Assembly (NCBI GenBank): GCA_947442505.1
Contig: CANEVR010000001.1
Location: 30,305-94,304 of the forward strand
Direction of reading: 5' to 3'
Source: Flavobacteriales bacterium
Lineage (GTDB): Bacteria; Bacteroidota; Bacteroidia; Flavobacteriales_D; Sanyastnellaceae
Length of the DNA stretch: 64,000 nt
Shown: piece after piece, positions 1 to 39,928 of the stretch
How positions within the stretch are numbered: position 1 is the first letter of the stretch
Layout: every line of letters begins with the position of its first letter
Notes under the pieces: model-generated
Told to the model about the DNA's origin: nothing
The model's input: only the letters and a program-made list of their open reading frames with translations
Databases searched by the model: none
Translations under genes and position numbers: made by a program

Positions 1-56
1 TTTGATTTGGTTGGCATAATAATTTTATTAAACTAATTTCTTTATTTCAAGATTGA

Positions 57-623
57 TTAACATATCTCCCAGCCTCTTTCATTCTCTTCCCAATTTCCTT
101 TATCATAACCTTTCGGATAATTGAGCTCCACAAAATCATCACCGTTCATAATGCTTCCTTGATGTAAAAAAAAGTAAGCAAATGGTAATACTTGATAGTC
201 ATGCACATCCCGCGCGTCATACAACTCGCCACTATCTCTCATATCTCCCTTTCCGTTTAATAGCCCAGTGATTTTATTCAAATTTGAATTATTATTTGCA
301 ACTTCGTACTCTTTTCCATCTATTTCAACCAAAACATTTTCAGTGTTTAAATTAAAGTTAGAAGGCCCATAATAATACCAACGATCAATACTTGAGAAAC
401 GATAAAAATCGTCTATTGTCTCCGAAATAAAAACTACCCAATTCACAAATTCCTCATCTGATCTCACCACTGATTGAATTCGACCTTGAAGCCATTTGCT
501 ATCATTAAATACTGAATAGGAAAGATGAAAAATATCTGAATAAGCCATTTCTTCATCGAAATTCTTGGACCAAATTCTAATATCAAAACCAAATTCTTTT
601 TTGCGCAATTTAGACATTGACAA
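57..623 (-). CDS. hypothetical protein, 188 aa, no recognisable domain
   Basis: Uninterrupted minus-strand ORF that starts 7 nt after the stop of the BRCT-FISUMP gene. No signal peptide and no motif recognised. Confidence 0.55.
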   Translation of the reverse strand: MSMSKLRKKEFGFDIRIWSKNFDEEMAYSDIFHLSYSVFNDSKWLQGRIQSVVRSDEEFVNWVVFISETIDDFYRFSSIDRWYYYGPSNFNLNTENVLVEIDGKEYEVANNNSNLNKITGLLNGKGDMRDSGELYDARDVHDYQVLPFAYFFLHQGSIMNGDDFVELNYPKGYDKGNWEENERGWEIC

Positions 624-630
624 TTCGTTT

Positions 631-1578
631 TTACTTATTGTTTTCTTTTACACATCTAACATAAAAACCTTCTTCTTCAAAAGGATTTGAATGTGTTGCC
701 TCTCGTTCTTCATTGTTGATATTAACAATCCAAAGTTGACCTGGAAACCAAACAGAACCATTACACCACCATGACACAGAGTAACCTTTTCCACCGAACG
801 AACCGTCATCACATCTCATGCCTCCTGGTTGGGCATTAAACAAAGGCTTTTTAGAACCATTCATATCCTCTTCCCATCCAACCGACGATTTAATTTTTTT
901 TGCTGAGTCCTTACCTAAAACATCTCTCAACTCAGTCCAATCTTCTAAAGTCGAAAGTCTCCACCCCAAAGGGGCAAGACCTCTTTTATCATCAAGGACA
1001 AAAGAATTATAAATTCTTCCAAACGTAACTCCGAACTCATTACTGTTCTCGTAATAGCAACAAGCAGGCTGTCTCTTTTTAAAAGCAGCGAGCCACTCTT
1101 TGGCTGACTTAGCTTCCGGTATCAAATCTCCATTTCTAAAATGTGCAACATCTAAATTCTTTGCCATCCAAATTTGCTTTCCAATCTTAACCTCTTCCAA
1201 AGTGGTTTCAACTGCTACTTTCTTTGCACTCGCTTTACTAACGGTTGGTTTGGTTTTTTCTTTGACAGTGTCCTTCTTCGTAGCGGCTGGCTTGATGATC
1301 TTTTTGCTCGTAGGCTCATTCGCTGCTGCCTTACCCTTCGGCACCATCTTCAAAAATTCCTTCTCTGTTATAATCTTCACCGTTCCCAATTTCTTGGCTT
1401 TTTCCAATTTACTTCCTGCATCTTCGCCCACTACCAAGTAGTTGAGCTTGGCACTCACACCTGAAAGGACTTTACCACCGTTGGCTTCTACCAATGCTTC
1501 GGCTTCATCGCGGGTGAATTCGGTTAATGTTCCTGTGAAGAGGAAGGTTTGGTCTTGGATTTTTGATTGGGTTGGCAT
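631..1578 (-). CDS. BRCT domain (LigA-type) fused to a FISUMP (Fibrobacter succinogenes major paralogous, TIGR02145-like) domain
   Basis: The N-terminal ~80 aa ([57 protein letters not shown]) resemble the C-terminal BRCT domain of NAD-dependent DNA ligase. A Lys-rich linker follows. The C-terminal part ([59 protein letters not shown]) fits the FISUMP pattern. No ligase adenylation or OB domains and no signal peptide. Confidence 0.85.
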
Positions 1579-1639
1579 AACAAAATATTTTTTTTTTAAT
1601 CTCTCGGATACTCTAATAAAACTCTAAAATTAATTATTA

Positions 1640-3544
1640 TTAGAATTGTCGCACTGCTCTAATTTTACAATTTGTGTTTCTCCCTAGAACCAATGATTTT
1701 GTAGGATAATCAGGCAACATTTCCCCTTTTCTAAAAACTCTCTCACCTTGAATGGCATGTGCATGATGACCATGAATCATTTTATCATTGAACCATTTCG
1801 ACATCTCTCCTCCTTGCTGCTCTGCAGTCCAGACAACTCCCGTAGTGACCTCTGTTGAACTCCAATATACTCCAACTAATTTCAAATTGTCAACCAACAC
1901 TTTCAATTCCTTCACTGTAGGCAAATACCAATCACTAAATCCGCTTTGACGACACGCGGAGCACAACCTAGCGGCGGTCGAAACTTGTGTTTCCGTACTT
2001 TTAAAAAAACCTTTTTCAATTAAAGTACTTGCTAATGTAATAATCTTATTTGTGTTAGACTTGCCCGTACTGTCAGAAATTCCATTTCCGTCTGCACCAA
2101 TTTTACCATCTATTCCCCATGGTGCATTTCCAATGTCATCACTTGTACTGACTAAACCGTGTTTACCCGATTTATCCAAATAAAACACCAAACCACCAGC
2201 ATAACGCACACCCACCTTCAACTTATCAGCATTCAATTCAAGCTTTAACTTTTGAAGCAATGTCTTTGACTTCTCTAATGGTTCAGTTTTAGATCTATTC
2301 AAATTTTGAATAATCAATTCGATATTGTCTGCGCTATGGGACACATATGTGGTTGCTTTGATTTCACCAATGAAAGCATCAATTTCCAATTCATGTAAAT
2401 TTATCTCGTTTTGAACATTCGTTATTACATGCTGATATTTACTTACTTCTGCAATTTTTACTTCGTAAGACTCTTTTGAAAGTCCTATTAAATTTTCCAA
2501 GACATCTGCGGCGTCATTCGAATTTATTCCCTTCCAAACATTAATAAGTGCATTTATTTTTTTATCAACACTATCATTCTTTTCTTTTATTAATTTGATT
2601 ACCTCTGCTTCATTAATCAAATCAATTTCTTTAAATGCAGCAATAGCCAGAATAGGCTCTTGATCTATACATAAATCCAGGTTCTCAATAGCATCATTAA
2701 TCTGTCCATTTCTAACTTGGTATTTTGCCAAGAGGAATCGATTCCGCGGATAATCATGAAACTTCAAAGATTTCATCTGGTAATTCACCGACTCGGCAAA
2801 TCGTCCTAATACGTATGATGAAAATGCTGCCTTTTCATATGAATCTGCAACAAGGATTCCAATTTGGCCTACGGAGTTGTATAATTCCGAGTTTACCGTT
2901 AGGAAACCATTCGTTAACACATTAACTAATCTTGTTGCATTACCATCATTTTCAACACTGGCGTATTTTGCGGCCTTAACAAAGTACTCCAAAGCTTTTT
3001 CGGGATTCAAATATTTCTCAACGTATAAATAAATGCATCCAATCCGATGTAAAACAAAATAATCTTGTTTCATCAAAGATTCCGCTTTTGAAAGTTCCTC
3101 CATTGCGTCAACAAACAAATCGACATCTTTTGAAGCATTTACAAAAAATTTAATACCCAACTCAATACACTGCTGTCTCTCTTTCTCGCTATCAGGAACC
3201 CGCAATAACTCAGCAATATTTTTAAGGAGCATATTGCTTAGTCGCTGTTGTTCAATTTGAACATCCAAGTTGCGGTTTAGAAAATTTAGCGTTTCATTAA
3301 TATCAGACATCTGATTAGAAAGCACATTCATGCCCCTTCCGATAGCGTTGCCCAATTGATTAACAGCTTCAACATGTTCTTTAGAAGCTTGTTTGATATA
3401 GGTCCCCACAGCATCTGCCCCATACTTTAAGAGAGCGGTATCTTTCGAATATTCAAGAAAACTATCATAAAGATTAGCATTCTCCTCCCATGGTTTCCAA
3501 TAACCATAGACAAAAAGAGGTTTCATTGGTTTGATATCACTCAT
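1640..3544 (-). CDS. helical/TPR-like coiled-coil protein with a C-terminal DUF1566-like (Lcl C-terminal, lectin-like) domain
   Basis: 634-aa ORF. The C-terminal ~150 aa (GGLVFYLDKSGKHGLV, FSDWYLPTVKELKVL, VYWSSTE, IRAVRQF) fit the DUF1566 pattern. The N-terminal 450 aa are helical repeat or coiled coil. No signal peptide. Confidence 0.7.
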   Translation of the reverse strand: MSDIKPMKPLFVYGYWKPWEENANLYDSFLEYSKDTALLKYGADAVGTYIKQASKEHVEAVNQLGNAIGRGMNVLSNQMSDINETLNFLNRNLDVQIEQQRLSNMLLKNIAELLRVPDSEKERQQCIELGIKFFVNASKDVDLFVDAMEELSKAESLMKQDYFVLHRIGCIYLYVEKYLNPEKALEYFVKAAKYASVENDGNATRLVNVLTNGFLTVNSELYNSVGQIGILVADSYEKAAFSSYVLGRFAESVNYQMKSLKFHDYPRNRFLLAKYQVRNGQINDAIENLDLCIDQEPILAIAAFKEIDLINEAEVIKLIKEKNDSVDKKINALINVWKGINSNDAADVLENLIGLSKESYEVKIAEVSKYQHVITNVQNEINLHELEIDAFIGEIKATTYVSHSADNIELIIQNLNRSKTEPLEKSKTLLQKLKLELNADKLKVGVRYAGGLVFYLDKSGKHGLVSTSDDIGNAPWGIDGKIGADGNGISDSTGKSNTNKIITLASTLIEKGFFKSTETQVSTAARLCSACRQSGFSDWYLPTVKELKVLVDNLKLVGVYWSSTEVTTGVVWTAEQQGGEMSKWFNDKMIHGHHAHAIQGERVFRKGEMLPDYPTKSLVLGRNTNCKIRAVRQF

Positions 3545-3694
3545 ATCTCATCTATTCTTTTTTGTATTTCCCAGCTCCTAAATTTCATAGGTAAAATGCT
3601 CGTTTGAACTTTTGAAGAAGAAAAACTTGATTCCAAATTTTCTTTACACCAAATTTCCACACTTAATTTGGTAATTCTGGCATTTTAAATATGC

Positions 3695-4309
3695 CTAATC
3701 CTTGATTAATCGCAAAGAGTAACCGTTTCCTTTTTCCGATGCTTTGCTTTCAGCTGTTTTACGATCTTCAAACAATCTGAAATCAATAGCCGAGCTCTTG
3801 ACGTAATCTGTCGATGTCCAAAAGTGCATTTGCATTCCACCGCCAAAAAACTCTCCATCTTCAGAGCACATACCAACAGGAGACGCAGCAAATCCGGACT
3901 TATTATCTCCATTGCCATCTTGGGTATTCAAATCATCATCCATAAACTCATCCCAGCCCTTAGTATCCTTTAATGCATGACCACCATTCTCTTCTCCACC
4001 ACATTGTTCTATTAAAACGGAGCATTCTTCGTCGGATGGCACATGCCAACCTTCTGGCGCCAATCCACGGTTGTCATTAACTGCAAACCAGTTGTACAAA
4101 GCCTCTCCGTTCTTCTCAAAGAAATTGTAGCACATCATTGGCTTCTCTTCTTTGACGGCCTTTTTCCACTCCTTTTCATTCTTGGCCAATGGAACTTCAT
4201 CTCCATTTCTGAATTGTACCACAACTACATTTTTTGAGGACCAAACTTGCTTACCAATTTTCACCTCTTCAATGTCCGCATTCGCGTTAATACCACTTTT
4301 TTTACTCAT
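3695..4309 (-). CDS. stand-alone FISUMP-domain protein, 204 aa
   Basis: Motifs VKIGKQVWSSKNVVVVQFRNGD, PMMCYNF, ALYNWFAVNDNRGLAPEGWHVPSDEE and GYSLRLIKD. Paralogous to the C-termini of the 631..1578 and 13858..17100 products. No signal peptide. Confidence 0.8.
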   Translation of the reverse strand: MSKKSGINANADIEEVKIGKQVWSSKNVVVVQFRNGDEVPLAKNEKEWKKAVKEEKPMMCYNFFEKNGEALYNWFAVNDNRGLAPEGWHVPSDEECSVLIEQCGGEENGGHALKDTKGWDEFMDDDLNTQDGNGDNKSGFAASPVGMCSEDGEFFGGGMQMHFWTSTDYVKSSAIDFRLFEDRKTAESKASEKGNGYSLRLIKD

Positions 4310-4425
4310 GATTTATAATTTTACTTTTTCAAATTCGGATTTCTTTTGTTCTATACAAATTCTCTTTCATTCCAAAATCCGATGCTAGATTTCAATTGCT
4401 CTCTACTAATTCCGTTAACACCTTT

Positions 4426-5169
4426 TCATTTTGATTTTAACAAGTGAATAATTTCACTTCTAACGTCCTCTTCTGTCTCGCCATTCAACTCAAAAATGGA
4501 ATCATCGATATAAAAAGGCATTTGCCCTTTGTCTGTGGTTGCATAAAAAATAATCTCACCATCCTTTATTAAAAATTGATGTGTCCCATATATTTCACCA
4601 CTCTCTTCTTCACTAGTTGAATTTCGCTCCATATTTTCTCCGTCAATTGTAGCAGACTTCAAAATTGAAATATCCAAATCTGCCATTTCTTGAAGGAAAC
4701 GATAACAAGTAATTTGACATTTCACTGTCTTACTGGTTGAGTCCATTAATGACTTTTCCGCTATAAAATAGATGGTTTCATTTCTGAAGGTACATAAATA
4801 AACCCCCTTATCTTGAAGCTTGACCTCACTTTCCTCAGATGTTTCAAATTCGAAGTTGTGAGTTGAGAGTGCATTCTTGTCTCCCAATTCTTGAACTTCC
4901 TGTCCGTTGAGGTACAATCCATTTTCATGAAGAACATTGTCGTAGATAAACCAATCATTGAAATATTCACTATCAAGGTATGAGTTTCCTTCAACGAGAA
5001 TTGCAATCGTATTCAGATCCTTTTTGCTCAATTTACCAATGGCAATCTCCATTCCATGACATTCACACAATTCAGTTGGAGAGTTCCGAGCAAAAATGAA
5101 ATCAGTTGTTTCCGCATGATCCCTTTCTTCTCCTTTTAATTGATTTGAACTATCCATATTGAATCGCAT
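4426..5169 (-). CDS. hypothetical protein, 247 aa
   Basis: Long ORF co-directional with its neighbours, acidic, no recognised motif. The start may be the internal MDSSNQ. Confidence 0.55.
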   Translation of the reverse strand: MRFNMDSSNQLKGEERDHAETTDFIFARNSPTELCECHGMEIAIGKLSKKDLNTIAILVEGNSYLDSEYFNDWFIYDNVLHENGLYLNGQEVQELGDKNALSTHNFEFETSEESEVKLQDKGVYLCTFRNETIYFIAEKSLMDSTSKTVKCQITCYRFLQEMADLDISILKSATIDGENMERNSTSEEESGEIYGTHQFLIKDGEIIFYATTDKGQMPFYIDDSIFELNGETEEDVRSEIIHLLKSK

Positions 5170-5194
5170 TTAATATTAGGAATTGCCTAAAAAT

Positions 5195-6679
5195 CTATTT
5201 TTTCAACTCCAAACTCAATGTTGGACCATCTGTTTCCATTTCGTATTTCTTGGTCAAGTCTTTGAAATCTTTTTTAGCAAACTTCCATCCATCAATATCG
5301 AAGTTTATTTCACTAATTTCTATATCCTTAAATGCTAAAATCCCTTCCTTTTTAAACTTAACTTCTGTACCCCAGTAACCTCCAATAACAAAAACAAACT
5401 TATTCAAATGAATTGAACCTAATTCCATGAAATCAGCGATTTCATGGCAATCACTCAACTCAAGCTCTTTCAATTTTTTCAAAGGCGCAATTCCCTTCAA
5501 CGAGGAAATTCTCGACTCATACAATTTCAAATAGTCAAGATTCTCTAGAGATCCAAACCCAGACATATCTGACACATTCCCCATTCCTTTCAAGGTTAGT
5601 TTTTTCAATCCCGAAAGTGCGTTCAAACAACTTGGAGTAAATTTCGATTTATATCCTTCCATTCCTAGTCCGTCTTCACCAATTTCTAATGTTTCTAATT
5701 TGGTCAAACATTTCAAGCTTTCATAATTGGCAAAGCCCTTTCCGCCGTTACGCACATTTGAAGAAACTTCTAAATGGCGTAAATCCTGACAAGTCTCTAC
5801 AAATCCCAAATCAATTGTAATGCTATCTTGACTTGAGGTATGTAATTTCAGACTTTGCAAATTGGACGGCATTTCAATTTTGTTTTTTCCTTTAACAGGA
5901 TATCCAACAATATTCAGTTCCAAATCTTTCAAGGATAGCAAATCCTTAAAGAAAACCAGATCATCCTTTGACTCTTCGTCAACAGAGAATATTAAGGACT
6001 CCAATCCCTTTAAATCAGACCAATTGATTTTTGCCTTTGACTCGCAACTACCCATCTCCAACTTTTGAATTCCGATTGGCAAATCCAATCTCGCAAATTT
6101 TGCACTCCAGTTTATTTCAGCGATGGTTGATTGAGATAAATCTAAACTTTTATCAGAAATTGCCGGCGCATTAATTCTAAAATATTTCAATTTGATTTTC
6201 TCTAAATCCTTCAATTCAATTTTAAATTCAGACCAAGTCTCGATTTCAAATCTTTCCAATTTTGGGCAAGCCTCGTACAGATTTTCTGAATTAAAATCAT
6301 CAACCTCTAGAATAACAGACAGTTCGATTATTTCTGCCCCGATAATTTCCATGAATTTCTGAAATTGAGAAAATCTCAAACCTTGTAAATGAACTTTAAC
6401 AATGGGTAATTCAAATTCCCAACTGGATTTATCTTTCAGTAATGCATCTAAATCCTCGAATGAAGTCGCATCATAAATACTTATTGAAACTCCACTATAA
6501 AATCCAGTTTTCGATTCTTCTTCAAAGTTATCAATGTCAATACTGATGAAATCATCTTTGTAATGTTCCTCTCCTTTGGCGTTTTGAACAAGATCAAATG
6601 AAATTGCGTCATATGTCTTAAGTGTAGATACCAATCCTACTGGGCTCCCTTTTTTACTCTTTGCGTTTGCTTTTGCCAT
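5195..6679 (-). CDS. leucine-rich repeat (LRR) protein
   Basis: Repeated LxxLxLxx(N/C)xL units (LQSLKLHTS, LRHLEVSS, LTKLETLEIGE, LKKLTLKG, LENLDYLKLYES, LKKLKELELSDC). I moved the start to ATG 6679 (MAKANAKSKK) because the longest ORF (to 6760) would overlap the upstream gene by 34 nt. No signal peptide. Confidence 0.8.
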   Translation of the reverse strand: MAKANAKSKKGSPVGLVSTLKTYDAISFDLVQNAKGEEHYKDDFISIDIDNFEEESKTGFYSGVSISIYDATSFEDLDALLKDKSSWEFELPIVKVHLQGLRFSQFQKFMEIIGAEIIELSVILEVDDFNSENLYEACPKLERFEIETWSEFKIELKDLEKIKLKYFRINAPAISDKSLDLSQSTIAEINWSAKFARLDLPIGIQKLEMGSCESKAKINWSDLKGLESLIFSVDEESKDDLVFFKDLLSLKDLELNIVGYPVKGKNKIEMPSNLQSLKLHTSSQDSITIDLGFVETCQDLRHLEVSSNVRNGGKGFANYESLKCLTKLETLEIGEDGLGMEGYKSKFTPSCLNALSGLKKLTLKGMGNVSDMSGFGSLENLDYLKLYESRISSLKGIAPLKKLKELELSDCHEIADFMELGSIHLNKFVFVIGGYWGTEVKFKKEGILAFKDIEISEINFDIDGWKFAKKDFKDLTKKYEMETDGPTLSLELKK

Positions 6680-6726
6680 TTCTATTTCTTTTTTGTGTTT
6701 GTATTTTTCTTGCAGATTTATCAATA

Positions 6727-7611
6727 TCAATCTGGAATTGTTTTCAATTGAGTATACCACTCAGGTGCTAATCCCAAATAGTTAACACCAGAGGCCAATG
6801 AATCTCTGAAATCGTATATTAAATCATAAACCTCTTCACTATCCCATTCCTTATCACCATCTTCATTCTTCTTCTTTTTAAGGCCGCTGTCTTTTGCGAG
6901 TTTAACAAAATAAGGAACGTCATCGAAATAATATGGATCTTCCCAATCACTGACAGTCGAATATTCGAAAGAAACCTTTCCTTTAGTGAAAACACAGAAA
7001 GACAACTCCCAAAGATTACGATCGAGATAAACAACTTTAAAATCTGACTTGGAATGTTTCGCTAAATCCTTGAAAAAGTTTTCATTCAAACGTATCGTAT
7101 CTTCAACATCCTGAAATAAATAGTTTATCATTAATTTACCTTCAGACTCATGAAAGTAAAAAAATGAATCATCTTCAGAGGTAATATCTTCAAACGAACG
7201 AATTGAATCTGTCACCATTAAAATCTTTTCTGTAATTGCAATGGTGCAGTACTTTTTGAACAACTTCTTTAAATCTGAAAGATTCAAATTGAGAAGAATT
7301 TCATTTTTATCTTGCTCCCCATTGTCTTCACTTATTGTACTTATACTCGATTTTAACGAGCTTGATTTTGACTTCGGTACCATCTTTAAAAACTCCTTCT
7401 CAGTTAAAATATTCACAGTTCCCAATTTCTTGGCTTTTTCCAATTTACTTCCTGCATCTTCGCCCACTACCAGGTAGTTGAGCTTGGCACTCACACCTGA
7501 AAGGACTTTACCGCCATAGGCTTCTACCAATGCTTCAGCTTCGTTCCTAGTAAATTCAGTTAATGTTCCTGTGAAGAGGAATGTTTTGTCTTGAATCTTC
7601 GATTTACTCAC
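6727..7611 (-). CDS. BRCT domain (LigA-type) fused to an unrecognised ~190-aa C-terminal domain
   Basis: The N-terminal 80 aa are nearly identical to those of the 631..1578 product ([56 protein letters not shown]). The C-terminal half is unrelated to FISUMP. Confidence 0.85.
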
Positions 7612-7767
7612 GCTTTAAAACTATGTAAATTCATAACTTAATTGAATTAAAATCGCATCTAAATATACACCAACAAAAGTAATCTCTCTATTAAGAATAC
7701 AACAAATTGAACATTAAACAAATGTCCAATAAACTAAATGTTCTGAAATTGAATAACCCCTAAAAAA

Positions 7768-8271
7768 TCACCTAATCGTCACCACCTCTGGATAGGGGAT
7801 CAACATCTCACAAACAGAGGCCACTTGATCTTTCATGATCATCGATAAGCCCAAGATCAAAGCCGCACTGATGATGGCTGAGGCTATGTTGTTCTTGCGG
7901 ATCTCTTCCCACTCATTGACATGCGTCAATTGAAACAACACCATTATTCCTCCCGCTATCACCAACATCGAAAACAATATGCCAATGATCAAGAACATCA
8001 TCACATATCCCAAACTGGTGCTGATGGTGGCGAAACTTACTTCCGATTGATTGATGAACCGAATGGCATTCATCCCTGGCCCAACTATGGAGCCCACCAA
8101 CAATGATGTCGATAACAATATCCCCGCCTGAAGCGTCGCAAAAGATGTATTCAACTCCTCCAACTGAAAGGCTTTCTTCAAATAAAAGTTCAATACCTTG
8201 TACACCATAAACAAAGCCACTACCCCCATCATAAAGGCAATACCAGCCTGCATTAAAATCACTGTATTCAT
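7768..8271 (-). CDS. DUF350-like (YjfL-like) integral membrane protein
   Basis: Four predicted TM helices. The second half carries the DUF350-type signature THVNEWEEIRKNNIASAIISAALILG (compare E. coli YjfL, ITPHNEWQLIKNNNTAASLAF). Last gene of a coupled operon, 15 nt after the upstream stop. Confidence 0.7.
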   Translation of the reverse strand: MNTVILMQAGIAFMMGVVALFMVYKVLNFYLKKAFQLEELNTSFATLQAGILLSTSLLVGSIVGPGMNAIRFINQSEVSFATISTSLGYVMMFLIIGILFSMLVIAGGIMVLFQLTHVNEWEEIRKNNIASAIISAALILGLSMIMKDQVASVCEMLIPYPEVVTIR

Positions 8272-8286
8272 TTTTCTTGTTGTTTT

Positions 8287-9771
8287 TTAATATAATACTA
8301 CATTCCAATTGTCCATGTCCGTGTGCTCCGGAGCAATCATTCCAACCCTAAATCCTTTGGCCGTTAACTCCACGCCAAAATGTCTCACCCCATCCACTTT
8401 CTTGTAGTGCGCTGAATTGGCCGGTACCGCCACTCCCATGATGGAATGTCCATACTCCCGACTTACCCAAACACTGCTCTCAATCCCCAATCGCTTCAAC
8501 AATGTATACCCCAACAAACTGCGCGTATCACAGTCGCCTTTCATGTTGTGCACAAACTCATAAGGACTCTGCACCCCTCCAACCACCTCCGGCAAACAGG
8601 GTCTTCCCTCTGAATGGTATTGCGCCACAAATCCTCCCTGTCCACTGGCCTCTTGGCAACTGCCATCGTGCACCAAATAGTAAGGAATCTCCTGTATAAA
8701 CGTCACCACCATCTCTGCTGTCTCCAAGACGTTGAGCGATTTGCTCTTGCGCTGACCGTCAAAATACTGAACCAAACTGTCCACTTTGTGTTGGTCGTGG
8801 TCATAAAAGTCAAAATACAAATCATGCCAGAAAGTAAGCTCATTGCCCACCGGAACATTCACCCAATGGTTGTGCAATTTCTTAGAATCTTCAAATGCTA
8901 AAGTTCCAGTAGTGTATCGGGCTTGAAAATCCCTTGGCTGAAAGTCGCTCCATCGCACCTCATGATCCACCAAGTAATTCCAAGGCTGCGGAGCCATGGT
9001 ATCTTGCTTGGGATCCAATCTTTGGTCTTCCAACTGCACATTTCCTTTCTTCGTCTTCAAAGGATCTTCTTGCCATTTGGATTTCAACCAACCTCCCAAC
9101 GATTGAAACAGTCCAATCAGTAAGCCCAAGATAAACAACCACCGCAATGCTTTGAATAATCCTCCGATACAACCCATTGGAGCCATACATCCCTTTCTCA
9201 TGCAACCTTTGGCATTGGCCAATGGGACGGTTGAACCCTGATTCCCAGCAATTAAATCGGGAACCAACAATGGATTGTCTGTTACCCCAACATTAGCATT
9301 TCCCAATACAGTGGTTGACTGAGGAGTGACTTTGCTGGCCGCTGTCGCAGGTACTATGGTTTTGGGCGGAGTCGGTTTTGGGATCGAGAAAAATACCTCT
9401 CCATATGCCACCCCCTTGGTTGTCCCCAAATGCAACGAACCCATTGAACGCACATTGGTTCTTTCTGCAGATCGCGGTCCTGCCTGCTCGCGAAAAACAA
9501 CGTGCTCAATGGGTTTGGCGTATGACTTCCCATCGGGCATTTCCAAAATCAAATCAACACTGCGAAAACCTTTGGGCTTAATCTTGGGAACATAAATAAA
9601 ATCACCCACCTTTTCTTGCTCAGGTAAACGATCATACACCTGCACAACACTGCTGATCTCCAACCACTCCCACTTCAATTGTGCAAATTGATGACCATGA
9701 CCACCCTGATTCCATTGCTTGGAAAAGGCTCCACGATATTTTCCTTTGAAATGAAAATACTCCTTACTCAT
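8287..9771 (-). CDS. single-pass membrane protein with a C-terminal transglutaminase-like/cysteine-peptidase-like domain
   Basis: N-terminal ~190-aa soluble domain, then a Cys/Gly-rich segment (KGCMRKGCMAPMGCIGG) and a TM helix. The C-terminal domain has a Cys...His arrangement (MKGDCDTRSLLGYTLLKRLGI ... EYGHSIMGV) typical of the transglutaminase-like fold. The start overlaps the upstream stop by 8 nt (ATGAGTAA). Confidence 0.65.
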   Translation of the reverse strand: MSKEYFHFKGKYRGAFSKQWNQGGHGHQFAQLKWEWLEISSVVQVYDRLPEQEKVGDFIYVPKIKPKGFRSVDLILEMPDGKSYAKPIEHVVFREQAGPRSAERTNVRSMGSLHLGTTKGVAYGEVFFSIPKPTPPKTIVPATAASKVTPQSTTVLGNANVGVTDNPLLVPDLIAGNQGSTVPLANAKGCMRKGCMAPMGCIGGLFKALRWLFILGLLIGLFQSLGGWLKSKWQEDPLKTKKGNVQLEDQRLDPKQDTMAPQPWNYLVDHEVRWSDFQPRDFQARYTTGTLAFEDSKKLHNHWVNVPVGNELTFWHDLYFDFYDHDQHKVDSLVQYFDGQRKSKSLNVLETAEMVVTFIQEIPYYLVHDGSCQEASGQGGFVAQYHSEGRPCLPEVVGGVQSPYEFVHNMKGDCDTRSLLGYTLLKRLGIESSVWVSREYGHSIMGVAVPANSAHYKKVDGVRHFGVELTAKGFRVGMIAPEHTDMDNWNVVLY

Positions 9772-11056
9772 TCACCTCAGTGCTTTTGGTTTCTGTTGTC
9801 TCAGTGTTGGTCAATTGAACCTCTACCCTTCTATTCAATGCTCTGCCCTCTACCGTGTCATTGGTCGTTCTTGGCTGACTTTCTCCCTTGCCGACTGCCT
9901 GCACCCGCGCACCATCCACTCCAAAACTCAGCAATACCTTTTTCACCGTCTCGGCACGCGCCTGGGACAAATTCAAATTGGCGGTTGCATCCCCCACATT
10001 ATCTGTATGTCCCACAATGGTGGCCTGCACCTTTGGATGCTCATTCAGATACTCTGCCAGTTGCTGAATGCTGCTGATGGAGTATGGAAGCAAATTGGCA
10101 CTGTTGGTATAGAATTGTACGTTGGGCAATTCAATGGCCTCTGTCTTTGAAATCGTTGTGGTATCCTTAAATTTCTTGATGATGTCTTCTTTGGATTTTT
10201 CATCCACATAAACTGTGTCATGAATCACCCGCGGACCCTGTGTACGTTCCATTTGATCCGAACATCCTTTCAATAAGCTAAACAACAAAAGCAAAAGCGC
10301 CAATAGTCCTAAAATACCACAACCTATTTTTCCGCAGCCACCTTGCAAGCAGCCTCCTCCGACTCCACCGGCACTCAAACATCCACCTGGCCCAGCTCCT
10401 ATGCCGCCAGGAGACAACATCATGCCCAAAGGACCACAACCCCGACGCTGTGATAATCGAGAAACGGAACCCATACAGCCCTTGCGTGATTGAAGCAATG
10501 TATCTCGATCAGCAATCAATTTCAATTGGTCTTCCTTCTCCTTTTCAGACCATTGGGGAATGGCACAATATCCTTGCCCCTGCAACCGGCCATGCCATAA
10601 ACCCTCTTTGTAGGCCAAAAACTCAAACCCTTGGTAGGCATTGCCTGCTGCATTGGGCGCAAACTCCACATAGATTTCCGAAGCCACTTCTTTGGTCGCT
10701 ACCGTTTTTCTTTCCAGCTCTATGGGATGGGATTCTTCCAGCAAAACATGGGGCTCGACTTGGAAAGGAGTATCCTGAGAAACATGACGCAGATGTTGTT
10801 CTTTTTGCCAATCAACCACTGAAGCGGATAAGCGATTGTCCTTGGCCTTAAAATATTCTTCCTTGGAAATTTCAGATTCAACAACCAATCGGAAACGTTG
10901 CTCCAATTGAATGGGCGCATGTTTGTATACACCGCCCATGGTTTGGGCTTTCTCAGCAATGAATTGCGAGAAAAAAACACCTTTGTAATATTTGATTTTA
11001 ACCTCTTCCATCACAATGCCTTGACCCATTGGTTCCAAGAAACGTCGGTTCCCCAT
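9764..11056 (-). CDS. single-pass membrane protein with a C-terminal OmpA-like peptidoglycan-binding domain
   Basis: The C-terminus (NVQFYTNSANLLPYS...LNEHPKVQATIVGHTDNVGDATANLNLSQARAETVKKVL...GESQP...GRALNRRVEVQL) is a canonical OmpA/MotB-type domain. It is preceded by a Gly/Cys-rich stretch and the TM helix ILGLLALLLLLFSLL. The more likely start is ATG 11011 (MEEVKIKYY), which overlaps the upstream TGA by 1 nt (TGATG). Confidence 0.85.
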   Translation of the reverse strand: MGNRRFLEPMGQGIVMEEVKIKYYKGVFFSQFIAEKAQTMGGVYKHAPIQLEQRFRLVVESEISKEEYFKAKDNRLSASVVDWQKEQHLRHVSQDTPFQVEPHVLLEESHPIELERKTVATKEVASEIYVEFAPNAAGNAYQGFEFLAYKEGLWHGRLQGQGYCAIPQWSEKEKEDQLKLIADRDTLLQSRKGCMGSVSRLSQRRGCGPLGMMLSPGGIGAGPGGCLSAGGVGGGCLQGGCGKIGCGILGLLALLLLLFSLLKGCSDQMERTQGPRVIHDTVYVDEKSKEDIIKKFKDTTTISKTEAIELPNVQFYTNSANLLPYSISSIQQLAEYLNEHPKVQATIVGHTDNVGDATANLNLSQARAETVKKVLLSFGVDGARVQAVGKGESQPRTTNDTVEGRALNRRVEVQLTNTETTETKSTEVNE

Positions 11057-11889
11057 TCACGCTGCTTGGTTTGTTTTAATATTGAATTGAAAGGTGCATC
11101 TTCATAGGGACTGAGGTCTTGCAACCTTTTGGAGTAAAAAGGGAAACGTTGGCTCAGCCGCAATTGACTCTCTTCTAAAGTCTCCGCATAATCGATTTGA
11201 ATATCTCGAATGGCTTTTTCAGATGCACGCTGAGCATACACAAAACTTTTGTTGTGTTTGATAACAACCATGAAAAAGAAAGGAAAAGCCACCATGATCA
11301 TCCAAAAACCAATCTCAGCGCGCTTTCCCGCATTTGACCACCATTGACGAAACACATAAAATGGATAATTGGCCTGCAGCAATTCTCTTTTCAAAGCCAC
11401 CGACATGTTGCTCTGTCCACCTTGTTTTTCAGCTGAAGCTTGAAAAACCTCCATTCGCTTCTGGCGATTCATGTCCTGAGAAGATGTGTGATGAAAAGCG
11501 CTGACCAGAGGAAAGGCCATGGAAACGGCAATGCATCCCACAAAAATCCAACGGACACCATTGGCAAAAGTGAACCATGAGCCGAAGGCAAGCACTTTCT
11601 TCCAGCGAGAAGCCTTCACCAAGGATACTTCATTCTTCTTGACCAATGGAAGAGAAATCATGGTAATGATGGCAATGCGCAAAATAGAGAAATGAATAAA
11701 CCCCATTAAAAACGCCATGGACACCACACCCAACCAAGACGCTGTCATCATCCAACCAAAATAACCATTGGACACTATAGACAGAACAATTACCGCCACA
11801 AACGACCATATGGTACAATGGTACATGAATCGTTCATTGCCGGATAACTGCGCAAACAAATCAGGATCTAACCCAATGATTTTCTTCAT
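11011..11889 (-). CDS. polytopic membrane protein, possibly a diverged DUF4407-like protein
   Basis: 292-aa ORF with at least five hydrophobic helices. The N-terminus (LDPDLFAQLSGNERFMYHCTIWSFVAVIVLS) resembles the start of DUF4407 proteins. ATGA overlap with the upstream gene at 11886..11889. Confidence 0.65.
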   Translation of the reverse strand: MKKIIGLDPDLFAQLSGNERFMYHCTIWSFVAVIVLSIVSNGYFGWMMTASWLGVVSMAFLMGFIHFSILRIAIITMISLPLVKKNEVSLVKASRWKKVLAFGSWFTFANGVRWIFVGCIAVSMAFPLVSAFHHTSSQDMNRQKRMEVFQASAEKQGGQSNMSVALKRELLQANYPFYVFRQWWSNAGKRAEIGFWMIMVAFPFFFMVVIKHNKSFVYAQRASEKAIRDIQIDYAETLEESQLRLSQRFPFYSKRLQDLSPYEDAPFNSILKQTKQREWGTDVSWNQWVKAL

Positions 11890-13127
11890 GCCTTGGGCGT
11901 TGTGTTGTCCTCTTGGTAGAAACGTTCAGGGTGATCATTCAACTCTTTGACTTTCTTTTGCGACCACACCCCAATAATCTTCTTGGACAAATCTTCTTGG
12001 GCCTTCAATTTTTCGACTTTTTCTTTTCGGTCATTTTCGACTTCCAAGAAATTGGTCTTTTCAATCAACACCATGCCATTGCGACCTTCAAAAATTTGGT
12101 CCTCTTTCACAATACCATTCTTCACATACATTCTGTAGTTGTAATTTTCAACCATGTAATCGTATGGTCCTTTGTTCATCATCATCTTGAAGAAAATAGG
12201 ACCCATCTCGATGGACAAGAAAATGAGGGTTAGGGCTATACCCAAACCAAAGCCGATTTCATGTGCAATTTCGATGCGCTCCAATAAACCATCCAGATTC
12301 TCTGCGTTCTTTTTATTATCAACGTTCAATTCCTTTTCTTGATCCGCCAACTTCTGATCCCGTTGTTTTTTAAGACCACTCAATTCTGCAGCATGCTTTT
12401 GATCATAGGCTTGAACATCTTTGATTTTCTCATTCTTAAAAACCTCTAGCTGCTTGGCTCTAGGACCGTAACCTGCCTCACCTGCTCTTCCTTGCATTTG
12501 ATCCAAATATTCCTGCTCTGCATCTTTTTGACGTTGAACCAGCACGTTGCGATCGTCCTCCAATTTCTTGATGTCCTTATCGATCAGGATAATTTGCTCT
12601 TTGAACTTGGCATAGGTATTCTTGTTGAACTCGTCCAATTTCTCTTGTTGCTTTTTACGCAACTCCACATTGATTTCGGTCTCGATGATTTTCAATTCCA
12701 GTGGTTTGGAAATCGTAATACCCAGAATCAAGGCAATGATCAAACGAGGAACGGCTTGACCAAATTCTTTTAGTGTGATGCTATCCGTTCCATCCCCTTT
12801 ACCGGTGCTGGAGACGATGAAGCGATCGAGATTAAAAATCAATGCGCCCCAGCACAAACCAAAAACGGCCGAACCAATCATCCACCCTGTTGAAGAGACA
12901 TCATCCCCGGCCATGCCTTTGGGACCAAAAGCGGTATTGAAAGCGAAACCTCCCGCAAAGGTGGCCAATAGACCGGTAGAAAAAACAATGCCGCCAATTC
13001 CTGCATATTTGACGCGGTCTTGGGCCGGAGAGCGCATCAGGAAAAACTGATCGGCACCTGCGCACCACCACAAAAAACGGGTGATGAAATTGACTTTTTG
13101 TGTGGGATATTCTTGTTGATTAATCAT
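11886..13127 (-). CDS. DUF4407 family membrane protein with a central coiled coil
   Basis: Motifs FLWWCAGADQFFLMRSPAQDRVKYAGIGGIVFSTGLLA, NLDRFIV and PRLIIALILGITISKPLEL, followed by a ~150-aa Lys/Glu/Gln-rich coiled coil and another TM helix. I chose the start at ATG 13127 (MINQQEY) because it forms an ATGA overlap with the upstream ORF stop (13124..13127). The longest ORF reaches 13211. Confidence 0.8.
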   Translation of the reverse strand: MINQQEYPTQKVNFITRFLWWCAGADQFFLMRSPAQDRVKYAGIGGIVFSTGLLATFAGGFAFNTAFGPKGMAGDDVSSTGWMIGSAVFGLCWGALIFNLDRFIVSSTGKGDGTDSITLKEFGQAVPRLIIALILGITISKPLELKIIETEINVELRKKQQEKLDEFNKNTYAKFKEQIILIDKDIKKLEDDRNVLVQRQKDAEQEYLDQMQGRAGEAGYGPRAKQLEVFKNEKIKDVQAYDQKHAAELSGLKKQRDQKLADQEKELNVDNKKNAENLDGLLERIEIAHEIGFGLGIALTLIFLSIEMGPIFFKMMMNKGPYDYMVENYNYRMYVKNGIVKEDQIFEGRNGMVLIEKTNFLEVENDRKEKVEKLKAQEDLSKKIIGVWSQKKVKELNDHPERFYQEDNTTPKA

Positions 13128-39900: not shown

Positions 39901-39928
39901 TGTTAATCATTTACTTATCATTCATTCA

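What the first reader, a model, noticed from the sequence alone, without database searches (positions are those of the whole stretch)
1..7611. Constant BRCT head with swapped tails: a recombining gene family sharing a 97-nt near-identical core
Two minus-strand genes about 5 kb apart (631..1578 and 6727..7611) open with the same ~80-aa LigA-type BRCT domain. Their C-terminal halves are unrelated: a FISUMP domain in one and an unrecognised ~190-aa domain in the other. At the DNA level, 1382..1478 and 7418..7514 differ at 2 of 97 positions, while the BRCT codons on either side are visibly more diverged. That pattern fits recent gene conversion or cassette exchange better than an old duplication. 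The first 17 nt of the window, reverse-complemented, read ATGCCAACCAAATCAAA (MPTKS). This mirrors the start of the 631..1578 gene (MPTQSK), so a third BRCT-headed gene probably begins at position 17 and runs off the left edge. A constant N-terminal module joined to exchangeable C-terminal modules, each followed by a small unknown ORF, is the architecture of polymorphic conflict proteins. I am not aware of a BRCT head described in that role. Speculatively, some eukaryotic BRCT domains bind ADP-ribose/PAR, and this island also encodes NADAR and ARH enzymes at 37.2-39.9 kb.
Basis: partly seen in the sequence, partly recalled or inferred. Interest (0 to 1): 0.65.

Follow-up and report, generated by a model that had tools for sequence, protein, structure and literature searches.

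The report
Recombining BRCT-headed gene family
A freshwater Bacteroidota genome carries a cluster of genes that all begin with the same DNA-ligase-derived BRCT domain but end in different domains; recombination keeps the heads alike and reshuffles the tails, and the family appears undescribed and has no known function.

Summary
Genes 631..1578 and 6727..7611 share an ~80-aa LigA-type BRCT head. 1382..1478 and 7418..7514 differ at 2 of 97 nt, while the flanks are 83-85% identical (permutation p about 0.0005-0.002). A 100%-identical contig extends the left edge and shows the predicted third gene (BRCT plus Lcl_C-like tail, 209 aa). The three heads form a mosaic (max-chi-square p=0.0015), which indicates gene conversion. 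Across related loci, heads cluster by genome rather than by tail (90% vs 80% DNA identity, p<5e-5). In a near-identical strain, gene A's tail is 97.8% identical but its head core only 78%. Another strain fuses a BRCT head to a homologue of the window's head-less 247-aa ORF. Recombination and module shuffling are therefore real. The polymorphic-toxin reading is not supported: no toxin or trafficking domain was found, and the downstream ORFs are not conserved partners. The head matches the Bacteroidota LigA BRCT consensus at about 80%. In 8 of 9 informative loci the array adjoins an ATP-dependent DNA ligase and two unknown proteins. The tail of 6727..7611 models confidently but has no structural neighbour. 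Function is inferred only: a shared DNA-nick/end (or LigA-partner) targeting head on exchangeable binding tails.

The parts
1..17 (-). First 17 nt (MPTKS) of gene C, the third BRCT-headed gene. It is 209 aa (BRCT + linker + Lcl_C-like tail) and runs off the left edge.
   Evidence: sequence; contig L081, 100% identical over the overlap, carries the whole gene at L081:3526-4155.
57..623 (-). 188-aa ORF downstream of gene A, with no recognisable domain. It is conserved only in a near-identical strain (88% aa in L104) and absent from the other related loci.
631..1578 (-). Gene A: BRCT head, disordered linker, FISUMP tail (315 aa).
1336..1578 (-). Gene A head (BRCT, LigA/RFC1 class). The repeat copy shared with gene B covers 1336-1568.
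1382..1478 (-). Gene-conversion tract, gene A copy. It differs from 7418-7514 at 2 of 97 nt; copy C differs from A at 9 of 95 compared sites (8 of them where A=B) in the corresponding stretch.
1192..1335 (-). Gene A linker, rich in K/A/T/S/P. It was exchanged together with the head in strain L104 (79.7% identity against 97.8% for the tail).
646..1191 (-). Gene A FISUMP (PF09603 / TIGR02145) tail.
1640..3544 (-). 634-aa ORF with a weak Lcl_C-like C-terminus and weak matches to phage protein families (phrog_4245, unknown function, E 6e-12; tail-fibre phrog_1491, E 0.002). Strain-specific array member without a BRCT head.
3695..4309 (-). Head-less FISUMP protein (204 aa). Orthologues in L001 (74%) and L086 (73%).
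4426..5169 (-). 247-aa head-less ORF. Its homologue (49% identity) forms the middle of a BRCT-headed, DUF4116-tailed protein in strain L103.
5195..6760 (-). LRR protein. Orthologues in L084 (78%) and L001 (59%). The true start is probably the ATG at about 6679, so the overlap with gene B is an ORF-calling artefact.
6727..7611 (-). Gene B: BRCT head, linker and a ~195-aa tail of unknown fold family (294 aa, GTG start).
7372..7611 (-). Gene B head (BRCT).
7418..7514 (-). Gene-conversion tract, gene B copy.
6730..7320 (-). Gene B tail domain. The AF2 model has pLDDT 93 and pTM 0.88, with no PDB or BFVD structural neighbour. It is conserved as BRCT+tail from 93% down to 36% identity, and also occurs without a head.

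Best explanation
The region is part of a tandem array of cytoplasmic modular proteins found in a group of uncultured, mostly freshwater Bacteroidota. A BRCT-headed member has three parts. The first is an ~80-aa N-terminal BRCT domain that closely copies the C-terminal BRCT of Bacteroidota NAD-dependent ligase LigA (the DNA-binding LigA/RFC1/PARP1 class). The second is a 20-50-aa disordered linker. The third is one of many C-terminal modules: FISUMP or Lcl_C-like lectin-fold domains, DUF4116 repeats, a ~195-aa domain with no structural neighbour, a second BRCT, or others still unclassified. SHOWN: heads within one genome are homogenised by short-tract gene conversion, and the 97-nt core is one such tract between genes A and B. 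Whole modules (head+linker, or tails) are exchanged, gained and lost between close strains. The array therefore evolves as constant head plus shuffled tails. INFERRED: the head is a common targeting module that brings different binding tails to one site. That site is most likely nicked or 5'-phosphorylated DNA, or whatever partner the LigA BRCT contacts. The array probably works with, or alongside, the accessory DNA-end-processing genes next to it: an ATP-dependent ligase with two conserved unknown proteins, an OGG-like glycosylase, and in one lineage an SbcCD-like nuclease and a helicase-nuclease. All of this sits inside a variable defence/conflict island. It is not a secreted polymorphic toxin system.
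For: Heads and tract: (2 of 97 differences against 83-85% identical flanks; p 5e-4 to 2e-3). Third copy. Mosaic among A, B and C: nt 0-90 A=C (B is odd one out 11:1), nt 90-185 A=B (C odd at 8 sites, B at 0), nt 185-231 A=C (6:2); max-chi-square permutation p=0.0015. Concerted evolution: in the T17/MPTK-head clade, within-genome head DNA identity is 90.1% (n=10) against 80.3% between genomes (n=95), label-permutation p<5e-5. Genome-specific signatures are visible, for example [11 protein letters not shown] in the window, AKAKALKTVSII in L001 and FMFTG...GGTIL in L004/L089. The same tail types (Lcl_C-like, FISUMP, B) nevertheless occur in several genomes. B, FISUMP and DUF4116 tails each occur with both main head alleles. 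Module exchange between strains: L104 gene A tail 97.8% identical against head 84.8%, core 78.4%, linker 79.7% (p=3e-11). L103 has one ORF with BRCT, a 247-aa-ORF homologue and 7 DUF4116 repeats. Gene order differs between the window, L084, L001 and L104 despite orthologous anchors. Head identity: PDB sequence hits to RFC1 and LigA BRCT (E 3e-13 to 8e-10). Foldseek matches to RFC1 and LigA BRCT at rmsd 1.7-2.4 A. NCBIfam LigA models match only through their last ~75 residues. 76 of 80 genome hits are the C-termini of ~700-aa LigA proteins at 65-83% identity, and the head consensus is about 80% identical to that LigA BRCT consensus. T15, G16, R23 and K57 are invariant in 56 head proteins and align with RFC1 ITG, R and SK. 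The TGT motif is a PARP1 BRCT DNA-contact motif (PMC12212138). Linker: pLDDT below 50 for aa 80-97. N-termini lack hydrophobic signal sequences. Context: the ligase + ~203 aa + ~232 aa trio lies beside the BRCT genes in L001, L024, L082/83, L084/85, L086, GCA_041443045.1, L088 and L089/90, which is 8 of 9 loci with enough flank. The ligase has the KxDG motif. In L024 the BRCT gene is a stand-alone 83-aa domain about 420 nt upstream of the ligase. OGG-like PF21790 lies between array and ligase in L084 and L001, and just beyond the window's left edge. In L089 the BRCT-B gene sits between a helicase-nuclease and an SbcD/SbcC-like pair. The island also holds NACHT and TPR STAND NTPases, GIY-YIG, NADAR and ARH.
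Against: No functional evidence exists for any member. DNA binding by the head is inferred from homology alone, and K36 of the GGK motif is not conserved in the L004 heads. The ligase trio also occurs without any BRCT gene within 8 kb (L092, L094). One BRCT locus (L087) has no ligase within 10 kb. Adjacency could therefore reflect a shared insertion hotspot rather than a shared function. The trio's two small proteins and the B tail have no detectable relatives of known function. A cytoplasmic role for FISUMP/Lcl_C lectin-like domains is unprecedented to my knowledge. Some within-genome heads are not homogenised (L089:722 and L089:10001 are 64-67% identical to the others), so conversion is not universal. 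Part of the genome-wise clustering could come from lineage-specific duplication followed by tail replacement rather than from conversion.
Confidence: 0.6

Rival explanations
1. Polymorphic toxin or effector system. In this view the BRCT head is a constant delivery or trafficking module, the tails are exchangeable toxins, and the small downstream ORFs are cognate immunity genes.
For: The constant-N / variable-C architecture with recombination at the junction is real. The setting is a conflict island. Small ORFs of unknown function are interspersed.
Against: No tail matches a toxin or enzyme family; the classifiable tails are binding or repeat domains. There is no signal peptide and no PAAR, Rhs, LXG, VgrG or T9SS-type domain, and the head is a cytoplasmic DNA-ligase domain. 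Downstream genes are not conserved with tail type. BRCT-B is followed by LRR (window), an OGG-like gene (L002), a 208-aa ORF (L001), a 77-aa ORF (L082) or an SbcD-like gene (L089). BRCT-FISUMP is followed by the 188-aa ORF, an OGG-like gene, or 217- or 224-aa ORFs. The same tail domains occur as free-standing proteins.
Confidence: 0.05
2. No recombination. In this view the near-identical core reflects stronger purifying selection or a nucleotide-level constraint (an embedded RNA or regulatory element), or simply a recent duplication.
For: The core encodes the most conserved part of the BRCT ([32 protein letters not shown]), which is identical at protein level in all three copies.
Against: The excess identity lies at synonymous sites (1 of 31 against 15 of 41). 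The third copy, C, encodes the same amino acids but differs from A at 9 of 95 core positions. There is therefore no nucleotide-level constraint, and the three copies give conflicting trees along the sequence. A simple recent duplication cannot explain flanks at 83-85% identity next to a core at 98%. It also cannot explain a 97.8%-identical tail on a 78%-identical head core in L104.
Confidence: 0.04
3. The head is a protein-protein adaptor or a LigA decoy rather than a DNA binder. It would either dock the tails onto a common protein partner (the neighbouring ATP-dependent ligase trio, LigA's own partners, or another BRCT), or mimic the host LigA BRCT so that factors attacking LigA are intercepted. 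Concerted evolution would then keep all heads matched to that partner.
For: Head similarity to Bacteroidota LigA BRCT is very high, and heads carry genome-specific signatures shared by all copies. BRCT-BRCT and BRCT-ligase pairings are established in eukaryotes (XRCC1-Lig3, Lig4-XRCC4; PMC10386641). A stand-alone BRCT lies next to a BRCT-less ligase in L024. Some family members have two BRCTs.
Against: No BRCT is present on the ligase, on the trio proteins or on the STAND NTPases of the window. The phosphate-pocket residues typical of DNA-binding BRCTs are invariant. Genome-specific signatures are also what neutral gene conversion produces. The host ligA gene could not be examined.
Confidence: 0.25
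4. The BRCT array and the ATP-dependent ligase trio are unrelated cargo that accumulate at the same genomic hotspot, and the heads have no connection with ligation or repair.
For: The trio occurs without BRCT genes in L092 and L094. The space between the conserved flank (ARH, AAA, DUF6717) and the array varies from about 1.4 kb in L001 to about 31 kb in the window. Array content differs in every locus.
Against: The two are adjacent in 8 of 9 BRCT loci from at least three divergent lineages (ligases only 55% identical). They are often on the same strand with short gaps or overlapping starts. A ligase-derived domain next to a ligase that lacks it is unlikely to be coincidence. OGG-like and SbcCD-like genes also recur.
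Confidence: 0.3

Closest known systems
C-terminal BRCT domain of bacterial NAD-dependent DNA ligase LigA (same class as the RFC1 and PARP1 BRCTs)
   Same: Sequence: 65-83% identity to Chitinophagales/Sphingobacteriales LigA BRCTs, about 80% between consensuses. Fold: Foldseek rmsd 1.7-2.4 A. The TG(T), R and SK motifs are conserved.
   Different: Here the domain is N-terminal, is detached from any ligase catalytic module, is multi-copy within a genome, is fused to non-ligase tails and is homogenised between paralogues.
Polymorphic toxin systems (CDI, Rhs, LXG and similar), recalled from Zhang et al. 2012 Biol Direct as own knowledge
   Same: A constant N-terminal region, exchangeable C-terminal modules, recombination at the junction and a tandem arrangement in variable islands.
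   Different: No toxin domain, no secretion or trafficking module and no conserved downstream immunity partner. The tails are binding or repeat domains that also exist as free proteins.
Effector-associated (adaptor) domains of NTP-dependent conflict systems (Kaur et al. 2020, PMC7159879)
   Same: One small domain recurs at the N-terminus of many otherwise unrelated proteins within conflict islands that also hold STAND NTPases, LRR and TPR proteins.
   Different: The same adaptor should also sit on the NTPase core, and no BRCT is found on the window's NACHT or TPR STAND proteins. That paper does not mention BRCT at all (0 occurrences).
Eukaryotic BRCT scaffolds that partner ATP-dependent ligases (XRCC1-Lig3, XRCC4-Lig4; PMC10386641)
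   Same: BRCT-bearing non-catalytic proteins are associated with an ATP-dependent DNA ligase and with end-processing enzymes.
   Different: The association here is genomic adjacency only. The bacterial ligase has no BRCT of its own, and homology with XRCC1 or XRCC4 is absent (the Foldseek hits to XRCC4 are noise at E 0.1, TM 0.1).
Anti-phage protein GAPS2 (bioRxiv 10.1101/2023.03.28.534373; NCBIfam NF047932) and PADLOC candidate PDC-S48
   Same: These are small defence or candidate-defence proteins whose C-terminal ~70 residues weakly match this BRCT head (E 2e-5 and 6e-6). GAPS2 was shown experimentally to protect against phages.
   Different: The scores are far below family cut-offs (24.8 against 330 bits). 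The BRCT-like part is C-terminal there. The GAPS2 authors reported no recognisable domain.
FISUMP (TIGR02145/PF09603) and Lcl_C/DUF1566 lectin-fold proteins, which to my knowledge include targets of diversity-generating retroelements (own knowledge)
   Same: Gene A's tail is a bona fide FISUMP domain. Gene C and the 634-aa ORF have weak Lcl_C-like ends.
   Different: Typical members are secreted proteins or lipoproteins, whereas these have no signal peptide and carry a DNA-ligase BRCT head. No reverse transcriptase was seen among the ORFs scanned, although not every ORF in the window was scanned.

Membership tests
BRCT domain, LigA/RFC1 DNA-binding class | Significant match to the BRCT profile and to LigA/RFC1 BRCT sequences | tested here: met
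   Pfam PF00533 E 7e-11 (42.7 bits against a cut-off of 21.3). PDB matches to RFC1 (2ebu, 2k6g; E 3e-13) and LigA (1l7b, 1dgs, 2owo). NCBIfam LigA models match through their last ~75 positions.
BRCT domain, LigA/RFC1 DNA-binding class | BRCT fold (beta-alpha-beta-beta-alpha-beta-alpha) | tested here: met
   The AF2 model of gene B (head pLDDT about 70-76) superposes on RFC1 and LigA BRCTs at rmsd 1.7-2.4 A over 76-78 columns, probability 1.00.
BRCT domain, LigA/RFC1 DNA-binding class | Conserved phosphate-pocket / DNA-contact residues (T-G in the beta1-alpha1 loop, Arg in alpha1, S-K at the start of alpha2) | tested here: met
   T15, G16, R23 and K57 are invariant in 56 head proteins and align to RFC1 ITG, R and SK. 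TGT is a DNA-contact motif in PARP1 BRCT (PMC12212138). The roles of the RFC1 residues are recalled from Kobayashi et al. 2006/2010 and could not be verified in the library.
BRCT domain, LigA/RFC1 DNA-binding class | Binds nicked or 5'-phosphorylated DNA | not testable with these tools
   Needs EMSA or fluorescence anisotropy with purified head.
NAD-dependent DNA ligase LigA | Adenylation, OB, Zn-finger and HhH domains upstream of the BRCT | tested here: not met
   LigA equivalog scores are 74.6 bits against a cut-off of 369, and only model positions 590-664 are matched. The BRCT starts at residue 5 of the protein.
FISUMP (TIGR02145 / PF09603) family, gene A tail | Full-length match to the FISUMP profile above the curated cut-off | tested here: met
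   PF09603 E 2e-31, 109.9 bits against 33.9, profile positions 1-187 of 187. TIGR02145 70.9 bits against 41.65.
Polymorphic toxin system | C-terminal toxin domain | tested here: not met
   No toxin or enzyme family was hit in the tails of genes A, B or C, or in 56 family members. 22 of 53 tails remain unclassified.
Polymorphic toxin system | N-terminal secretion or trafficking module, or a signal peptide | tested here: not met
   The N-terminus is the BRCT itself with no hydrophobic leader. No secretion-system genes were identified among the scanned neighbours.
Polymorphic toxin system | Cognate immunity gene immediately downstream that co-varies with the tail | tested here: not met
   Downstream genes differ among loci with the same tail type. 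The 247- and 634-aa ORFs lack full-length homologues in the fetched loci, and the 188-aa ORF recurs only in near-identical strain L104.
Effector-associated adaptor domains of STAND/NTPase conflict systems | The same adaptor domain is present on the NTPase core protein of the locus | tested here: not met
   tblastn of the head against the whole window finds only genes A and B. The NACHT and TPR-STAND proteins show no BRCT.
Anti-phage GAPS2 family (NF047932) | Whole-protein score above the curated cut-off | tested here: not met
   24.8 and 19.8 bits against a cut-off of 330. Only the C-terminal model positions 122-188 are matched.
Multigene family under concerted evolution by gene conversion | Paralogues within a genome are more alike than orthologues between genomes, with mosaic tracts | tested here: met
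   90.1% against 80.3% head DNA identity, permutation p<5e-5. Three-copy mosaic p=0.0015. Exceptions exist in L089.

The most novel reading that the evidence does not exclude
The BRCT-headed proteins form a diversifying intracellular receptor array. A LigA-derived head parks interchangeable lectin-like, DUF4116 or unknown binding tails on DNA nicks or 5'-phosphate ends, for example the ends of incoming phage DNA. Alternatively the head acts as a decoy of the host LigA BRCT. In either case the array works in trans with a BRCT-less ATP-dependent ligase trio and an OGG-like glycosylase as a previously undescribed DNA-end-centred defence or repair system. Within-genome gene conversion keeps all heads matched to one target.
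Probability: 0.15. Interest if true: 0.85.

Novelty: new variant of a known kind. Interest (0 to 1): 0.6.

Why it matters
If the reading holds, a housekeeping DNA-ligase domain has been exapted as the common head of a rapidly shuffling protein family in bacterial conflict islands. That would be a new type of constant module alongside the secretion and adaptor domains already known. It gives a clean natural example of concerted evolution of one domain inside otherwise unrelated genes. It also flags three uncharacterised and abundant protein families: the B tail, and the ~203-aa and ~232-aa partners of an accessory ATP-dependent ligase (the 232-aa family has about 1,500 homologues, none of them named). 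Finally it offers a testable link between BRCT-mediated DNA-break recognition and bacterial defence or repair, reminiscent of eukaryotic BRCT scaffolds that partner ATP-dependent ligases.

Tried and rejected
(1) Identifying the B tail. Pfam, NCBIfam, PADLOC and PHROGs gave no hit. Foldseek of a confident tail-only model against PDB gave a best E of 0.098 at TM about 0.1, and against BFVD a best E of 0.02 at TM below 0.3. The XRCC4 hits there are noise.
(2) Identifying the ligase-trio partners. Pfam at E<0.1, PHROGs, PADLOC, NCBIfam and PDB sequence search gave nothing. A homologue search for the 232-aa protein returned 1,505 proteins, of which every one of the 120 listed is unnamed or called 'hypothetical' and has no Pfam domain. 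I suspected from reading the sequence that the 203-aa protein was Ku-like, but Pfam did not support this, so I dropped the idea.
(3) Testing whether the 214-230-aa family directly upstream of the ligase is OGG-like. hmmsearch gave E about 0.01 and hhalign gave probability 40%. This is inconclusive.
(4) Phage origin. IMG/VR and INPHARED hold only LigA C-termini at 62% identity or less.
(5) Literature. No paper combines BRCT with DUF4116 or Fib_succ_major. Papers on BRCT with polymorphic toxins or with conflict systems were irrelevant. One search on GAPS2 OR BRCT was wasted.
(6) Single-linkage BLAST clustering of tails chained through linkers and multi-domain proteins. I replaced it with classification against reference domains.
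(7) ADP-ribose link. ARH belongs to a conserved flank shared with L001, and nothing ties it specifically to the BRCT genes.
(8) The host ligA of the same genome could not be retrieved, because the genome scan and the contig look-ups were exhausted.

Full report
OBSERVATION. The two minus-strand ORFs exist as described: 631..1578 (gene A, 315 aa, ATG) and 6727..7611 (gene B, 294 aa, GTG; its 93%-identical homologue P0001 starts at the same place). Both open with a Pfam BRCT domain. Gene A ends in a full-length FISUMP domain (PF09603, E 2e-31). Gene B's tail hits nothing in Pfam, NCBIfam, PADLOC or PHROGs. The heads form a 233-nt direct repeat at 90% identity. 1382-1478 and 7418-7514 differ at exactly 2 of 97 positions (1437 and 1477), whereas the flanking head segments are 84.8% and 83.3% identical. 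The unevenness lies at synonymous sites: 1 of 31 codons in the core against 15 of 41 in the flanks (Fisher p=5.6e-4). It survives a scan-corrected codon permutation (p=5e-4 for the longest run with at most one difference, p=2e-3 for at most two).

THE THIRD GENE. Window 1-22 matches 1562-1583 at 20 of 22 positions. Looking up gene A's exact protein returned contig L081, which is 100% identical to the window over the 2,000 nt compared and runs past the left edge. It shows the predicted gene C: 209 aa, with a BRCT head differing from gene A's at 2 of 81 residues, a linker and a weak Lcl_C-like tail. Gene C is followed by an OGG-like glycosylase (PF21790) and a DUF4116-repeat protein.

GENE CONVERSION. 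With three copies the pattern can be polarised. Over 231 aligned nt, A=C in the first 90 nt (B is the odd one out at 11 sites, C at 1). A=B in nt 90-185 (C odd at 8 sites, B at 0). A=C again in the last 46 nt (6:2). A two-breakpoint maximum chi-square test with label permutation gives p=0.0015. Copy C encodes the same amino acids in the core but differs from A at 9 of 95 nucleotides, so a nucleotide-level constraint cannot explain the A/B identity. The 97-nt core is best read as a short conversion tract between A and B. I could not determine its direction.

CONCERTED EVOLUTION ACROSS GENOMES. A homologue search with gene B returned 1,327 proteins. The BRCT+B-tail architecture is conserved from 93% down to 36% identity. 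The head alone, at 70-90% identity, is joined to FISUMP, DUF4116, a second BRCT, Lcl_C and many unclassified tails. In the listed top 150 of an exhaustive representative search I counted about 45 clusters (at 50% identity) with an N-terminal head, in proteins of 79 to 1,183 aa. Heads fall into alleles (MPTK.../T17, MAKTTT.../K17, FMFTG...). The B, FISUMP and DUF4116 tails each occur with both main alleles. In loci with several heads, all heads share genome-specific signatures: [11 protein letters not shown] in the window, AKAKALKTVSII in L001, VISGVS...GTDAGSKLD in L088 and FMFTG...GGTIL in L004/L089. In the MPTK clade, head DNA identity is 90.1% within genomes and 80.3% between genomes (label permutation p<5e-5). 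13 of 19 heads have their nearest neighbour in the same genome. This holds even though the same tail types are present in different genomes. Homogenisation is not universal: two heads in L089 are only 64-67% identical to the rest.

MODULE EXCHANGE BETWEEN CLOSE STRAINS. An exact-match scan of metagenome contigs with 26 nt of the core gave four short contigs. In L104 the FISUMP tail of the gene A orthologue is 97.8% identical in DNA (12 differences in 546 nt). Its head is 84.8% identical, the head core 78.4% and the linker 79.7% (Fisher p=3e-11 and 4e-13). The L104 head carries the L001-type signature. The same tail therefore sits on two different head+linker modules. In L103 the gene C orthologue (95% identity) is followed by a single ORF of at least 594 aa. 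This ORF consists of a BRCT head, a domain 49% identical to the window's head-less 247-aa ORF (4426..5169) and seven DUF4116 repeats. Gene order also differs among the window, L084 (LRR 78% identical), L001 (LRR 59%, FISUMP-204 74%) and L104. Caveat: L103 and L104 are short metagenome contigs, and chimeric assembly across the repeated heads is not excluded.

WHAT THE HEAD IS. The head matches RFC1 and LigA BRCT domains in PDB by sequence (E 3e-13 to 8e-10) and by structure (rmsd 1.7-2.4 A). NCBIfam LigA models match only through their last ~75 positions, far below their cut-offs. In a scan of one genome per species, 76 of the 80 retained loci were the C-termini of ~700-aa LigA proteins of Chitinophagales and Sphingobacteriales at 65-83% identity. 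Only five loci (L001-L004 and L024) had N-terminal heads. The head consensus and that LigA BRCT consensus differ at about one residue in five. T15, G16, R23 and K57 are invariant in 56 heads and align with the TG, Arg and SK positions of RFC1. From my own knowledge (Kobayashi et al. 2006/2010, not verifiable here), these positions form the 5'-phosphate pocket. TGT is a DNA-contact motif of PARP1 BRCT (PMC12212138). The head is thus a LigA BRCT relocated to the N-terminus of non-ligase proteins. Residues 80-97 of gene B are predicted disordered, the linkers are K/S/T/A/P-rich, and no array protein has a signal peptide.

THE B TAIL. A tail-only AF2 model built on 44 sequences is confident (pLDDT 93, pTM 0.88). 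It has no neighbour in PDB (best E 0.098) or in BFVD (best E 0.02, TM below 0.3). Conserved features include a DFK motif and a basic [13 protein letters not shown] stretch. Its function remains unknown.

CONTEXT. All genes from position 1 to 17.1 kb lie on the minus strand. The window is a conflict island: DUF350/OmpA/DUF4407 genes, a 1,080-aa protein with a FISUMP C-terminus, TPR and NACHT STAND NTPases, GIY-YIG, a YAcAr SLOG domain, NADAR, ARH and an AAA ATPase. GC content is 35% in 1-8 kb against 43-46% in the right-hand third. ARH, AAA, DUF6717 and a 645-aa gene (38.9-45.8 kb) are syntenic with L001, where the BRCT array begins about 1.4 kb after the AAA gene. The window carries about 31 kb of extra cargo in between. 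The most consistent neighbour of the array is a trio: an ATP-dependent DNA ligase (438-448 aa, LigD-like ligase domain, KxDG motif), a ~203-aa protein and a ~232-aa protein. It was found beside BRCT genes in 8 of 9 loci with enough flank, across lineages whose ligases are only 55% identical. In L024 the BRCT gene is a bare 83-aa domain upstream of the ligase. An OGG-like gene lies between array and ligase in L084 and L001, and just beyond the window's left edge. In L089/L004 the BRCT-B gene lies between a helicase-nuclease and an SbcD/SbcC-like pair. Starting from the 232-aa protein instead, two informative loci (L092, L094) have the trio but no BRCT within 8 kb. The link is therefore not obligatory.

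INTERPRETATION. Shown: this is a modular family with a LigA-derived BRCT head. Heads are homogenised by gene conversion, and heads and tails are reshuffled between strains. Inferred (about one chance in three): the head is a shared targeting device for DNA nicks or 5'-phosphate ends, or for a LigA-BRCT partner. It would tether variable binding tails beside an accessory ligase and end-processing module, within a defence or repair island. The polymorphic-toxin reading fails three defining features: toxin tail, trafficking head and cognate immunity gene. The effector-associated-domain analogy fails because no BRCT sits on the STAND NTPases, and that literature does not mention BRCT. The weak similarity of the head to the C-termini of the validated anti-phage protein GAPS2 and of PADLOC candidate PDC-S48 is a lead, not membership. 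I found no paper describing this family, and the source databases call its members hypothetical or TIGR02145-family proteins.

VERDICT. The recombination interpretation is supported, and the toxin and ADP-ribose interpretations are not. I rate it a new variant of a known kind (constant-module/variable-module recombining families) with an unusual constant module and an unexplained, possibly functional, association with an ATP-dependent ligase trio. Interest 0.6.

Noticed in passing
Outside the window: L084:11245-13909, L001:16692-20079, L082:11990-14648, L086:7278-9937, L088:4242-6884, L089:929-3600, L092:6029-8699, L094:6045-8696: A conserved trio: an ATP-dependent DNA ligase (KxDG motif, LigD-like ligase domain), a ~203-aa protein and a ~232-aa protein. 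Neither small protein has any family or PDB match. The 232-aa family has 1,505 homologues, and all 120 listed are unnamed or 'hypothetical'. This looks like an undescribed module and is usually flanked by variable cargo.
   Followed up: partly
L089:6549-14363 (same as L004:13693-20232): A BRCT+B-tail gene is embedded between a 1,144-aa RNase_H_2/SF1 helicase-nuclease and an SbcD-like (Metallophos) plus SbcC-like (SMC_N) pair. Two more BRCT genes lie convergent downstream.
   Followed up: partly
window 7768-13211 (-): A run of DUF350 (167 aa), a 494-aa ORF, an OmpA-like protein (430 aa), a 292-aa ORF and DUF4407 (441 aa). The DUF4407/292-aa/OmpA part recurs in L086 downstream of the ligase trio (76%, 33% and 46% identity). 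It is possibly a membrane-anchored system of its own.
   Followed up: partly
window 13858-17100 (-), 17182-21348 (+), 22707-28154 (-): A 1,080-aa protein with a C-terminal FISUMP domain but no BRCT lies next to two very large STAND NTPases: a 1,388-aa TPR type and a 1,815-aa NACHT type.
   Followed up: no
window 29035-30819, 35758-36102, 37247-37720, 38932-41596: GIY-YIG nuclease with a YaaA-like region, a YAcAr SLOG domain, NADAR, an ADP-ribosylglycohydrolase and an AAA ATPase. ARH, AAA, DUF6717 and the 645-aa gene (38.9-45.8 kb) are syntenic with L001:22-7112. The approximately 31 kb between them and the BRCT array is therefore strain-specific cargo.
   Followed up: partly
window 1-8000 vs 42000-64000: GC content is 35-38% in the BRCT array against 43-46% in the right-hand third of the window. 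GC skew is strongly negative over the minus-strand gene run.
   Followed up: no
window 1640-3544 (-): The 634-aa ORF weakly matches a phage family of unknown function (phrog_4245, E 6e-12) and a tail-fibre family (phrog_1491, E 0.002). It ends in a DUF1566/Lcl_C-like segment and has no homologue in any related locus fetched.
   Followed up: no
window 6679-6760: The listed LRR ORF (GTG at 6760) overlaps gene B by 34 nt. Homologues align only from residue 33-36, so the real start is probably the ATG at about 6679 and the overlap is an ORF-calling artefact.
   Followed up: partly
L082:11330-11986, L086:6589-7281, L088:3571-4245, L104:62-706: A 214-230-aa family sits directly upstream of the ligase where no PF21790 OGG-like gene is present. 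It shares a WGGI motif with the OGG-like proteins, but profile comparison is weak (hhalign probability 40%, E 3e-4).
   Followed up: yes
L004 (JBIICY010000004.1): The 251-kb contig with five BRCT heads is labelled 'Patescibacteria group bacterium'. Its gene content and its BRCT/ligase neighbourhood (shared with L089/L090) resemble the Bacteroidota loci, which suggests a mis-binned or mislabelled MAG.
   Followed up: no
NCBIfam NF047932 (GAPS2), model positions 122-188: The validated anti-phage protein GAPS2 was reported by its authors to have no recognisable domain. The C-terminal part of its family model weakly matches this LigA-type BRCT head (E 2e-5), so GAPS2 may end in a BRCT-like domain.
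   Followed up: partly
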